Source of the DNA: a virus | Lineage: Duplodnaviria > Heunggongvirae > Uroviricota > Caudoviricetes | DNA: 64,000 nucleotides | Strand: one strand, 5' to 3' | Virus record (IMG/VR): IMGVR_UViG_646311923_000012 | Part shown: positions 24,001 through 27,000 of the stretch, piece after piece | Position numbering within the stretch: the first letter of the stretch is position 1 | How the letters are laid out: each line of letters starts with the position of its first letter | Position numbers: made by a program

Positions 24001-27000
24001 TTATATCGTCGGAATACCCGCCGCTCTTCAAATCCCATTCCCAACTCAGAATGTAGTCTGTTGACCGCTTGTTTTATTTCGGTCAGGTTCACCGGTGAAA
24101 CCGGAGTCCGGCGCGCCTTACGCAAACACTCTGCTCGTTTCTGTGCCGCCACTTTTCTTTTCTGGTCATCACTTAGCTGTACCATCACTTTTGCCCATCG
24201 TTCAGCTGCTCTCCGGTACAGTCCTTTTTTCTCCAGACATTCTGCCACGTGATCATGTAGCATAAGTGACCTCCGATTATCTACAGACTGCCATCCTGAA
24301 TTTACCTTCCCTTAATGAAATAACAATAAAAAACAAACCACGCAAAAACAATAAAACAACACACAAAAAAACTAAATAATAAACAAAAATAATCACCTTA
24401 TTTTATTATTTTTTGAGGGAGCAATTACTGAACAAAAAACGCTGACTATATACTCAAAACCAAACAACTATTCTGCCAATCAGGTATCATGGCAACACAC
24501 GGAATTACCGTGTTTTTGCCTTCTCTGCCCATACAATACGGGCATATACTTCATTCTCTATTGTAATATTTCTATCCATTTGCCCCACTCCATTTACCTG
24601 TAAATAATATTCAAAATATTTATCACAGAAATCGTTTTTGGCCATGAACTGAGCACACTATAAAGTCCGGAACTGACTCTTTGTTAAATTACCTTAACGT
24701 TACCAGTAACACCTTCATAACAAAACATCACGGTATACACTGGGTACGGATATATTCCTGTGCTCCTTCCAGTTGCTTCTGCATTGCCATCAGCCGTTCT
24801 CTGAGGATGAAATAATCCCGTTCAGCGGTGTCTGCCAGTCGGGGGCCGGTTGCATTATCCACGCCGGAGGTGCCGGTGGCTTCACGCACGGTACCGGAGC
24901 AGGTGGCGTTGATCCGCAGGCGCTTACGACCAGCGGCAACATCAGCACGCAGAGTTTCATTTTCAGCTCTCGCATCGGCTAATTCCCTCGAGTATCTGGC
25001 ATCAAGTGCAGCGACATCACGCTGGCGTATCTGCATATCAGTAATTGTCGCGTTCGCCAGCTCCAGCTCACTGGCTTTTTTATCGCGCTGCTCTTTGTAG
25101 ATGATGGCGTGATCACGGTAATGATTCAGCCCCAGACTAAGCACACCACAGGCTACCAGCAGGACAATAATCACCACACACAGAACACGGTTCATATCCC
25201 CCTCACCCCACCAGCCATGACAAAGTTAAGACGCGCCAGGCAGTGGAAAAGCAAATAGCAACCAGCATTAGTGAAAATGAAATGCCGACGATTACACAGA
25301 GGATCTTCGCCAGCGTTATGAGCTTGTCTGACATGCTTAATCCTCTTCACGATTTCAACGCAATGACCAGTTTTGCCAGCCCATACAGCATCGGAGACAC
25401 AGCAATACCGACCGCCACCCACTTAATAGCAAAAGCCAGCGCTCTGCTGACGTCATCAGTTACAGGCGCTTTCAGTTCAAGGCCGTTTTTCATAGTCAAT
25501 CTCAACAGAATTCGTTTATACTTTCCCATGTTCTCCCTTGCCTTACTCAAGGTCAGAAACACAAAACCCCGTTTGCGGCCAACAAACGGGGTTTTACTTT
25601 TATTCACTTAGTTTTTGCCAGTTCGCAGGATTTCGTGTTATCCGCCAGTGTGAGCAAACCGCATTTTTCAGCAAAATATTCTGCTTATCTGTCAATTCCC
25701 CAGCACGCCAGCGCGCTCTCCTGGTCACGCCGTGAAACCTGACCGTAGCAGTTGTTTGAGCGAATACGGCAGTCTCTGCCACCGTCCTTAATCCACCAGC
25801 GAATCGCTTCGCAGGCACCTTTTAGATCACCTGCATTAATCCGTCTGTAAAACGTAGACGGGAAACACTTACCGGGGCCAATGTTATAAGGACAAAATGA
25901 CGCGATACCCGCCTTCTGGGGTTCGGTCAGCGGTACTTTAATATTGCGCTCCACCCACTCCAGCGCCTTATCACGTTCAATGGCGTTAACCTGGTCGCAT
26001 TTTTCCTTCGACAACTTCATGCCCGGGACGACAGGTTTACCATCCACTCGGGTGGTACCGCGGCAGATGGTCCAGATCCCCGCACCATCACGGTATGCCG
26101 TGGTGTGGTTACCTTCTTTTTCGTCAAGAAACTGGTCGAGGATTTCAGGCGCAGACGCCCCTGCACCAATCAGCGCCAGAACGGCAGCCGACAGGCCGTA
26201 TTTTATTTTTTCGTTCATGGGGATTTATCGATTTCTAATCCCTTGATATGTTAGGTATATAATCCAACACTCATGGTCGCTCTCATAAACATATCCCTTG
26301 AGACGCAGCAGATTACAACAAATGAAGCCATATAAATGAACAGTAAAGAAAGTTTGCGCAGAAGATTTTTACAACTAATGACAGAAAACGTTAAATCAGA
26401 GTTACTTCTTCTGATGGCAGATAATAACGAAGCAACAAGCAGCATTCTTGCAGACCCTTACGGTAAGATCTCACATAAAACGCTGGATATTATTACCACA
26501 ACATTAACACCGCTGATGCTTCAACGGCTGAAACATAATATCAACGCATGGGTTAATGAAGAATTAAGTCCTCCCTGCTTATGGGATTCTCGTTACGCAT
26601 GTCAGCAAAAAATGCGAATTTTCAACTTACTATCACCAAAGCTCAGGTAGCCATAAAATCCTGCCCTTCATGGCATACAGGATTTCAATGGAATCACAAT
26701 GACCAACTCTTGCACAGCTGTATCCCTGACTCCCCGACAACTCAGATTTTCAGTATCTGCTGCTATCTAAAGAGAAAGCGCACAAATGCAAGGGTCTTTC
26801 ATCACGTCCTGTTATTGATTGCCTGTGACCTTTTCTTACCTCATGGAACGTTTTTTCAGTTAGAAATATTCATTTTACAACCAGTTCGTATTGTTTATTC
26901 ATCGACTACTCTCCCCGCGCCACCTTACGACGGTCCTCTCTGATTTTGAAATACAGGTTAGTCAGATACGTCAGCAGGCCAAACAGCAGACTTCCCAGCA

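What the first reader, a model, noticed from the sequence alone, without database searches (positions are those of the whole stretch)
26219..26905. Unknown gene inserted between holin and endolysin on the opposite strand
S and R are normally adjacent in lambdoid lysis cassettes. Here about 690 bp of AT-rich DNA separates them and carries a 104-aa plus-strand ORF (26336..26650) with no family I can recognise. A second small membrane-protein ORF (25347..25529) sits between R and Rz. Insertions inside the lysis cassette are well placed to be expressed at lysis.
Basis: seen in the sequence. Interest (0 to 1): 0.45.

Follow-up and report, generated by a model that had tools for sequence, protein, structure and literature searches.

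The report
Orphan opposite-strand gene between holin and endolysin
A real, conserved but uncharacterised small gene sits backwards between the holin and endolysin genes of an E. coli lambdoid prophage; it is one variant of a very variable spot in these lysis cassettes, and its orientation argues against expression as part of the lysis transcript.

Summary
Holin S (26906-27112, -) and lysozyme R (25685-26218, -) are separated by 687 bp of low-GC DNA carrying a 104-aa plus-strand ORF (26336-26650).

The ORF is a genuine protein-coding gene:
- It matches PHROG 1853 (E 3.5e-47).
- Diverged homologues (21-79% identity) all keep a 104-107 aa frame.
- dN/dS is 0.13-0.3.
- All other frames are closed.

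It has no Pfam, NCBIfam, PADLOC or PDB relative. AlphaFold gives a confident soluble five-helix bundle with no fold match.

In every locus recovered it lies antisense to the late genes, diverging from a lysis gene. That gene is R in E. coli and the holin in a Salmonella prophage and three metagenome loci. It usually converges on a late-strand "mid" gene (PHROG 1085, often fused to DUF1327/YdfR). In the window that gene is reduced to a 255-bp wreck.

Cargo between S and the 177-aa lysozyme is the rule (50 of 53 loci), so the "S-R normally adjacent" premise is locally wrong. The orientation also argues against expression at lysis.

Best reading: a self-contained moron module, probably prophage-expressed, acting by protein binding. 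Its function is unknown. Interest is moderate to low.

The parts
26336..26650 (+). 104-aa ORF: a soluble, all-alpha protein of PHROG 1853. RefSeq annotates it as the 90-aa hypothetical protein WP_000138558.1, starting at 26378.
   Evidence: ORF listed. PHROG 1853, E 3.5e-47. Homologues at 21-79% identity, all about 104-107 aa. dN/dS 0.13-0.34. Only this frame is open in all alleles checked. AlphaFold model pLDDT 89, five helices. No transmembrane segment.
26255..26335 (+). The module's own upstream region. It has a TATAAT at 26258-26263 that is conserved in position in three of the four clade-1 sequences compared (TACAAT in the fourth). It also has a 5-codon mini-ORF (26323-26340) whose TGA overlaps the ORF's ATG.
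   Evidence: Alignment of upstream regions. The boundary with the shared R leader lies at about 26254. The promoter score is not above shuffled sequence, so a promoter is inferred, not shown.
26219..26254 (-). R-proximal leader carrying R's translation-initiation region. It is shared with cassettes that lack the ORF.
   Evidence: The same roughly 40-55 nt precede R in DUF1327-only locus L101 and in both ORF clades.
26651..26905 (-). Decayed remnant of the late-strand 'mid'/DUF1327 gene that normally lies between S and the ORF. A 10-codon stub (26870-26902, MNKQYELVVK*) starts 3 nt after the S stop. Further in is a stop-ridden fragment that weakly resembles the mid C-terminal domain.
   Evidence: The stub is 92% identical to the N-terminus of P0115. 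The fragment is 34% identical over 44 aa to P0046 residues 143-186, including RDTAV. The last 38 nt match the 5' ends of DUF1327 genes in dozens of loci. The remnant diverges about 2-2.5 times faster than the ORF among window-type variants.
26906..27112 (-). Holin S: P21-type class II (pinholin-type), 68 aa.
   Evidence: Pfam Phage_holin_2_1, E 1.3e-32.
25685..26218 (-). Endolysin R (177-aa lysozyme). It is transcribed divergently from the ORF, with 117 bp between the two start codons.
   Evidence: Pfam Phage_lysozyme, E 1e-25. The R-ORF arrangement is the same in about 90 loci.
25347..25529 (-). 60-aa small ORF between R and Rz with one C-terminal hydrophobic segment. This is the second ORF named in the finding.
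   Evidence: PHROG 1115, E 6.6e-42. Kyte-Doolittle mean 1.90. 95% identical ORF in isolated temperate phages PhiR12 and PhiR5. Not annotated by RefSeq in the closest genome.
25203..25334 (-). 43-aa strongly hydrophobic small ORF immediately upstream of Rz.
   Evidence: PHROG 4906, E 7.3e-24. Kyte-Doolittle mean 2.86. RefSeq annotates a 37-aa hypothetical protein at the corresponding place.

Best explanation
The ORF is the coding part of a roughly 400-bp self-contained accessory module (a 'moron', 26255-26657). It is lodged in the hypervariable junction between holin S and the 177-aa lysozyme R of E. coli lambdoid prophages.

It encodes a small cytoplasmic five-helix-bundle protein of a very narrow enterobacterial prophage family (PHROG 1853). 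This much is shown.

Because it points against the late operon, it cannot be made from the Q-dependent late transcript. It must use its own promoter in the roughly 80 bp it carries upstream. It is therefore most likely made from the resident prophage, or early, and shut down by head-on late transcription at lysis. This is inferred.

The protein has no catalytic, DNA-binding or membrane signature, and its net charge is not conserved. It therefore most likely acts by binding another protein. The obvious candidate is the late-strand 'mid' protein it is usually convergent with. In the window it stands alone, because that neighbour has decayed. This too is inferred. Its biochemical activity is unknown.
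For: Real gene:
- dN/dS 0.13-0.34 between diverged alleles, with third-position changes dominant.
- The frame is preserved in 25 distinct alleles from 97 loci, and the other frames are closed.
- Selection continues in the mid-less lineage: 7 synonymous against 4 non-synonymous changes.

Module and moron traits:
- GC 0.36-0.39 against about 0.5 in the flanks.
- Presence/absence between the same S and R genes.
- Homology to relatives begins about 80 bp upstream of the ATG and ends 7 nt after the stop.
- A positionally conserved TATAAT lies about 70 nt upstream of the ATG.

Orientation: always antisense to the late genes, diverging from R in about 90 E. coli loci and from the holin in a Salmonella prophage and three metagenome loci.

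Protein properties:
- AlphaFold pLDDT 89, pTM 0.80, five helices.
- Maximum 19-residue hydropathy 0.66, so no transmembrane segment.
- pI ranges from 4.6 to 9.3 across the family.

Prevalence: the window-type gap is at least 99% identical in 622 of 5426 complete E. coli genomes. The ORF was intact in all 50 or so window-type IMG/VR loci.
Against: - No promoter scores above shuffled sequence.
- No plus-strand terminator follows the ORF. Two classic moron hallmarks are therefore unproven.
- I found no expression data. Full-text searches found nothing on this gene.
- No relative of known function exists by sequence or fold. The protein-binding mode is therefore an argument from absence.
- No record among 50,697 deposited phage genomes carries the window-type DNA. 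The carriers may be largely defective prophages in which the gene merely hitch-hikes.
Confidence: 0.5

Rival explanations
1. The ORF is a dedicated partner of the late-strand 'mid' protein. It would be an immunity- or antitoxin-like antagonist, or a chaperone, that neutralises or regulates mid. The window copy would then be an orphan left behind after mid decayed.
For: - The two genes are convergent, with abutting or overlapping stops, across the whole known divergence of the family. This holds in E. coli clades 1 and 2, in Salmonella L096, and in metagenome loci L092-L095 where ORF identity to the window is only 21-41%.
- Mid sits 4-8 bp after the S stop, so it is a late protein.
- The window retains a wreck of mid.
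Against: - Each gene occurs without the other. Mid occurs without the ORF in Stx2_95 and in 9 of 10 midC-carrying loci in the survey. The ORF occurs without mid in the window type, the commonest allele, found in 630 genomes.
- The ORF stays under purifying selection after the loss of mid.
- Physical linkage alone could explain the co-occurrence.
- The mid structure model was unusable (pLDDT 48), so no interface could be examined.
Confidence: 0.22
2. The module is a safety catch on lysis. Transcription from its promoter runs head-on into any leaky late transcript just upstream of R (or of the holin in distant relatives). The resulting antisense RNA or transcriptional interference lowers accidental endolysin or holin expression in lysogens and may tune lysis timing. 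The protein may add to this by binding a lysis protein.
For: - The ORF always lies immediately upstream, in the late direction, of a lysis gene and diverges from it. That gene is R in E. coli and the holin in L092, L093-094 and L096.
- In the late mRNA the whole ORF forms an untranslated antisense leader of about 430 nt in front of R.
Against: - Strong protein-level constraint would not be needed for a purely transcriptional device.
- No promoter or RNA structure stands out.
- The upstream regions of the two clades are unrelated.
Confidence: 0.15
3. One reading: a cargo gene expressed together with the lysis genes at the end of the lytic cycle.
For: The ORF lies inside the lysis cassette.
Against: - It is on the strand opposite to S, R and Rz in every locus examined. 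It therefore cannot be read from the late transcript.
- Convergent late transcription would be expected to reduce, not raise, its expression.
Confidence: 0.06
4. A chance ORF in a non-coding AT-rich spacer.
For: - No Pfam family.
- Weak Shine-Dalgarno sequence.
Against: - dN/dS 0.13-0.34.
- The frame is kept in alleles down to 21% identity.
- PHROG 1853, E 3.5e-47.
- A confident AlphaFold model from only 13 sequences.
Confidence: 0.02

Closest known systems
PHROG 1853 (phage protein family of unknown function); Stx2-converting phage 86 gp06 (YP_794053.1)
   Same: Same family (E 3.5e-47 and 8.4e-50). gp06 is 53% identical to the window protein, also 104 aa, in the same opposite-strand position between S and R.
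   Different: In phage 86 a 268-aa DUF1327-plus-mid gene lies between S and gp06. In the window that gene is a 255-bp wreck. The upstream regions of the two clades are unrelated. Nothing is known about the function of either.
Lambda bor and other morons of lambdoid phages (Hendrix/Juhala concept; from my own knowledge)
   Same: A small accessory gene next to the lysis genes, opposite in orientation to the late operon, with atypical base composition, present in some relatives and absent in others.
   Different: Bor is an outer-membrane lipoprotein lying after Rz. This protein is soluble and cytoplasmic and lies between S and R. Its own promoter and terminator, and expression in the lysogen, are not demonstrated here.
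YdfR/DUF1327 genes between essQ and rrrQ of the K-12 Qin prophage and many E. coli prophages
   Same: They occupy the same S-R junction. This is the usual cargo there (34 of 53 loci with the 177-aa lysozyme carry DUF1327 alone).
   Different: DUF1327 genes are on the late strand and are unrelated in sequence. The ORF has no DUF1327 match. The window keeps only a 10-codon stub of such a gene.
P22 immI region (mnt/arc/ant with sar antisense RNA), embedded in a late operon (from my own knowledge)
   Same: A small opposite-strand gene inside a late operon that is expressed in the lysogen. An ant gene lies between R and Rz in phage 86.
   Different: There is no ribbon-helix-helix or HTH signature, and charge is not conserved. 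There is no consistent association with ant: the window has none. This is an analogy of layout only.

Membership tests
PHROG 1853 | Significant match to the family profile over most of the protein | tested here: met
   E 3.5e-47, residues 1-102 against profile positions 57-158 of 159.
Moron (autonomous accessory gene in a phage genome) | Present between two genes that are adjacent, or differently filled, in related phages | tested here: met
   S-R junction survey of loci with near-identical S: 24 adjacent, 46 with other cargo, 4 with the ORF.
Moron (autonomous accessory gene in a phage genome) | Base composition different from the flanks | tested here: met
   GC 0.36-0.39 over the ORF against 0.47-0.57 in R, S and nanS-p.
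Moron (autonomous accessory gene in a phage genome) | Own promoter and terminator | tested here: inconclusive
   There is a positionally conserved TATAAT at 26258-26263, but no -35 element, and the score is within the range of shuffles. No plus-strand terminator follows the stop.
Moron (autonomous accessory gene in a phage genome) | Expressed from the repressed prophage | not testable with these tools
   No transcript data are available, and the literature searches were empty.
Lysis-cassette protein (holin, antiholin, endolysin, spanin) | Encoded on the late transcript, with a membrane or secretion signal or a muralytic domain | tested here: not met
   Opposite strand. No transmembrane segment. 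No lysis-related Pfam family.
DUF1327 / YdfR family | Match to PF07041 | tested here: not met
   The ORF has no Pfam hit. PF07041 matches only the late-strand neighbour in relatives.
Two-gene toxin-antitoxin or immunity pair with the 'mid' gene | Obligate co-occurrence of the two genes | tested here: not met
   The ORF occurs alone in the window type. Mid occurs alone in Stx2_95 and in most midC-carrying loci.
Two-gene toxin-antitoxin or immunity pair with the 'mid' gene | Physical interaction, and neutralisation of a toxic partner | not testable with these tools
   The mid model was unusable (pLDDT 48). No complex prediction was available.
Known anti-phage defence systems (PADLOC) | Match to a defence-protein model | tested here: not met
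   No hit for the ORF, its distant homologues or mid at E up to 0.1.
DNA-binding regulator (HTH / ribbon-helix-helix) | Recognisable DNA-binding motif or fold | tested here: not met

The most novel reading that the evidence does not exclude
The PHROG 1853 protein is a new kind of cytoplasmic lysis regulator encoded antisense inside the lysis cassette. It would be made in the lysogen, would hold a lysis-associated late protein (mid, or the pinholin's cytoplasmic tail) in check, and would be switched off by head-on late transcription once Q fires. Convergent transcription would thus be coupled to the commitment to lyse. Its orphan five-helix fold would be a new antiholin- or immunity-like module.
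Probability: 0.12. Interest if true: 0.65.

Novelty: new member of a known kind. Interest (0 to 1): 0.35.

Why it matters
The gene is carried by at least about 13% of complete E. coli genomes (630 window-type plus 95 clade-2, out of 5426), including O157:H7, O104:H4 and other STEC prophages. It nevertheless has no known function, no characterised relative and no fold match.

Its fixed antisense position directly upstream of a lysis gene makes it a candidate for control of prophage lysis. In Stx phages lysis accompanies toxin release. It could equally be a lysogen-benefit factor.

The practical corrections are more certain:
- The S-R junction upstream of the 177-aa lysozyme is a cargo hot-spot, not a normally tight junction.
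- RefSeq's 90-aa gene model is probably 14 codons short.
- Part of the "spacer" is a pseudogene.

Tried and rejected
- **Rfam scan of 23000-31000:** nothing in the S-R gap.
- **Family searches:** Pfam, NCBIfam and PADLOC on the ORF, its distant homologues and the neighbouring mid protein gave no meaningful hits.
- **PDB sequence-profile searches:** only insignificant hits.
- **AlphaFold of the mid protein:** pLDDT 48, so unusable and not searched.
- **Scan of GTDB species-representative genomes:** no relative found.
- **blastn of the gap against 50,697 phage records:** no match.
- **Promoter and terminator scans and RNA folding of the window region:** nothing above shuffled controls.
- **Five literature searches and two papers on Stx-phage lysis and flanking regions:** no mention of this gene.
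- **Readings rejected:** a chance ORF, a lysis-transcript gene, a DUF1327 member, an obligate toxin-antitoxin pair, a DNA-binding repressor of the Mnt type, and a known sRNA locus.

Full report
**What is at the coordinates**

The window carries the late region of a lambdoid prophage on the minus strand:
- three tRNA genes
- a nanS-p-type esterase (27561-29411)
- a P21-type class II holin S (26906-27112, 68 aa)
- a 177-aa lysozyme R (25685-26218)
- two small hydrophobic ORFs
- Rz (24728-25195) and Rz1 (24790-24975)

S and R are 687 bp apart (26219-26905). GC drops to 0.36-0.43 there, against about 0.5 in the flanks. The closest complete genomes are cattle and human STEC-like E. coli. In one of them, UTAK-4, the prophage sits next to yccA and looks structurally complete.

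**Is the ORF a gene? Yes.**

- It matches PHROG 1853 at E 3.5e-47.
- Searches recovered homologues in two E. coli clades, at 64-79% and 47-53% identity. Rarer relatives were found in a Salmonella enterica prophage and in metagenome contigs, at 21-41% identity. Nearly all are 104-107 aa.
- From 97 loci I extracted 25 distinct alleles.
- Pairwise dN/dS is 0.13-0.34, with substitutions concentrated at third codon positions.
- Only this frame is open in all 10 diverged alleles checked. The other five frames are closed at 64 aa or less.
- Among alleles of the window type, which all lack the neighbouring gene, there are 7 synonymous against 4 non-synonymous differences. Constraint therefore persists in this lineage.
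- RefSeq annotates a shorter 90-aa product (WP_000138558.1, start at 26378). Residues 1-14 are conserved within the window's clade and are modelled as the start of helix 1. The 104-aa model is therefore preferred.

**Anatomy of the gap**

Comparison with relatives splits the 687 bp into three parts.
1. **26219-26254.** This is the leader of R. It is shared with cassettes that have no ORF.
2. **26255-26657.** This is the ORF module. Homology to diverged relatives starts about 80 bp upstream of the ATG and ends 7 nt after the stop. The upstream 80 bp contains a positionally conserved TATAAT (26258-26263). It also contains a 5-codon mini-ORF whose stop overlaps the ORF's start codon in all four clade-1 sequences compared.
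3. **26651-26905.** On the minus strand this is a pseudogene.
   - Three nucleotides after the S stop an ATG opens MNKQYELVVK*, which is 92% identical to the start of DUF1327-type genes.
   - Further in, a stop-interrupted frame weakly resembles the conserved C-terminal domain of the "mid" protein. The match is 34% over 44 residues and includes RDTAV.
   - At the DNA level only the 38 nt next to S still match.
   - Among window-type variants this stretch has diverged 6-8%, against 2-3.5% for the ORF.

**Context elsewhere**

In every locus recovered the ORF is antisense to the late genes.
- In about 90 E. coli loci it lies between S and R, diverging from R by 117-150 bp.
- In most non-window types a late-strand gene of 185-330 aa fills the space between S and the ORF. 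It matches PHROG 1085. Its N-terminus is variable, often DUF1327/YdfR. Its C-terminal domain is conserved (...RIGRCMGYLQVAAEIE...PPFKK.P..W..PG..YLKGRI). It converges on the ORF, with stops that abut or overlap.
- In the Salmonella prophage and in metagenome loci L093 and L094 the same convergent pair lies upstream of the holin instead. There the ORF diverges from the holin, or from an HNH gene that precedes the holin. In L092 the ORF likewise diverges from the holin, and the partial gene it converges on carries the same mid C-terminal motif. L095 shows the convergent pair, but the contig ends too close to the ORF to show a holin.
- The pairing is therefore old but not obligatory. Stx2_95 and most midC-carrying loci in my survey lack the ORF. 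The window type lacks mid.

**How unusual is cargo between S and R?**

I examined 74 resolvable IMG/VR loci whose holin is at least 94% identical to the window's.
- In 21 loci S overlaps a different, R21-like endolysin.
- In 3 loci S abuts the 177-aa lysozyme.
- In 50 loci there is cargo before the 177-aa lysozyme:
  - 34 have DUF1327 alone.
  - 12 have mosaics of DUF1327, midN and midC.
  - 3 have the ORF alone, as in the window.
  - 1 has the ORF plus mid.

The junction is therefore a hot-spot, and the opposite-strand ORF is a minority filling.

**Prevalence**

- The window-type gap is at least 99% identical in 622 of 5426 complete E. coli genomes, and matches in 630.
- The clade-2 ORF is in 95 genomes, including O104:H4.
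- Among 50,697 deposited phage genomes, none has the window-type DNA. Only four records, representing phage 86 and the Stx2_12E129 prophages, encode any relative.
- In a 1.84-billion-protein representative library the profile finds just 20 clusters.
- Species-representative genomes gave none.

**What the protein looks like**

- AlphaFold gives a confident model from only 13 sequences: pLDDT 89, pTM 0.80, five helices.
- It has no hydrophobic segment, and the pI of family members ranges from 4.6 to 9.3.
- The invariant residues are few (G43, W72, E76, Q91, K92, L99). They suggest no active site or metal site.
- Foldseek against PDB and BFVD finds nothing with E below 1.
- Pfam, NCBIfam, PADLOC and PDB sequence profiles are silent.
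- The neighbour mid could not be modelled (pLDDT 48).

**Mechanism**

*Shown:* this is a selected protein-coding gene. It sits in a compact, compositionally foreign module that comes and goes at a variable junction. It is always antisense to the late operon and adjacent to the 5' end of a lysis gene.

*Inferred:*
- Since the late transcript cannot encode it, it must have its own promoter in the 80 bp it brings along.
- It is most plausibly expressed from the prophage and silenced by head-on late transcription.
- It acts as a protein binder. Mid is the natural candidate partner where mid is present.

I rate this autonomous-moron reading at about 0.5. A dedicated mid partner or antagonist rates 0.22, an antisense safety catch on R or S rates 0.15, lysis-time expression rates 0.06, and a chance ORF rates 0.02.

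The weak points are these:
- No promoter or terminator stands out from shuffled controls.
- I found no expression data and no literature on the gene.

**Verdict**

It is wrong on two points, namely the adjacency premise and expression at lysis.

The gene is already catalogued as a hypothetical protein and a PHROG, and it fits the known category of prophage morons in a cargo hot-spot. It is therefore a new member of a known kind. Its interest lies in its orphan fold, its wide carriage in pathogenic E. coli, and its strictly conserved antisense placement in front of a lysis gene.

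Noticed in passing
window 27110-27121 (-): The holin gene lacks the upstream start codon of the P21-type dual-start motif. The codons before the ATG read ATA CAT CAG (I-H-Q), whereas relatives read ATG TAT CAG (M-Y-Q), for example L133. This allele would therefore make only the 68-aa form and not the 71-aa form, which from my own knowledge of phage 21 is the antiholin.
   Followed up: partly
window 25203-25334 (-) and 25347-25529 (-): Two small hydrophobic ORFs (43 aa, PHROG 4906; 60 aa, PHROG 1115) lie between R and Rz. The closest complete genome is about 150 bp shorter here, and RefSeq annotates only a 37-aa protein at the corresponding place. The 60-aa ORF is 95% identical to one in isolated temperate phages PhiR12 and PhiR5. 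Their function is unknown.
   Followed up: partly
window 29634-29824 (-) and 29904-30150 (-): A full-length Rfam STnc100 sRNA match (138 bits) and three tRNA genes lie upstream of nanS-p. This is the layout of an Stx-phage late region, but I saw no stx genes between the tRNAs and the esterase.
   Followed up: no
L002 4893-4920; L003, L094 and L096 at the equivalent place: In clade-2 and the distant relatives a conserved GC-rich hairpin (CAGCCCGCCAGTG...CACTGGCGTT) lies on the ORF strand between the lysis gene's start and the ORF. In the E. coli clade-2 loci it is followed by a T-run. In L096 it folds with z = -2.9. It could be a 5' leader hairpin or attenuator, or a terminator for an RNA antisense to the lysis gene's start. 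It is absent from the window's clade.
   Followed up: partly
window 26323-26340 (+): A five-codon mini-ORF (ATG AAG CCA TAT AAA TGA) ends in an ATGA overlap with the ORF's start codon. An equivalent five-codon ORF with the same overlap is present in L005, L009 and L060, despite sequence divergence. This may indicate translational coupling.
   Followed up: partly
L002 5292-6098 (-), L003 5297-5938 (-), L096 6338-6895 (-), L093 1710-2264 (-): The late-strand 'mid' family (PHROG 1085) is mosaic. Its N-terminal modules are interchangeable (DUF1327 or a coiled-coil-like segment). Its C-terminal domain of about 90 aa is conserved from E. coli to Salmonella and metagenomes. It has no Pfam family, and AlphaFold could not model it (pLDDT 48).
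   Followed up: partly
L019 4443-5753: In one IMG/VR contig a roughly 1.3-kb insertion interrupts the mid remnant between the ORF and S. In L001 (O157:H7 PV15-279) an IS3 element truncates R next to the ORF. Several carriers of this cassette are therefore visibly decaying prophages.
   Followed up: no
window 23643-23867 (+) and 23949-24263 (-): Downstream of Rz there is a YlcI/YnfO-family ORF on the plus strand and a 104-aa PerC-family regulator on the minus strand. These annotations come from near-identical RefSeq genomes.
   Followed up: no
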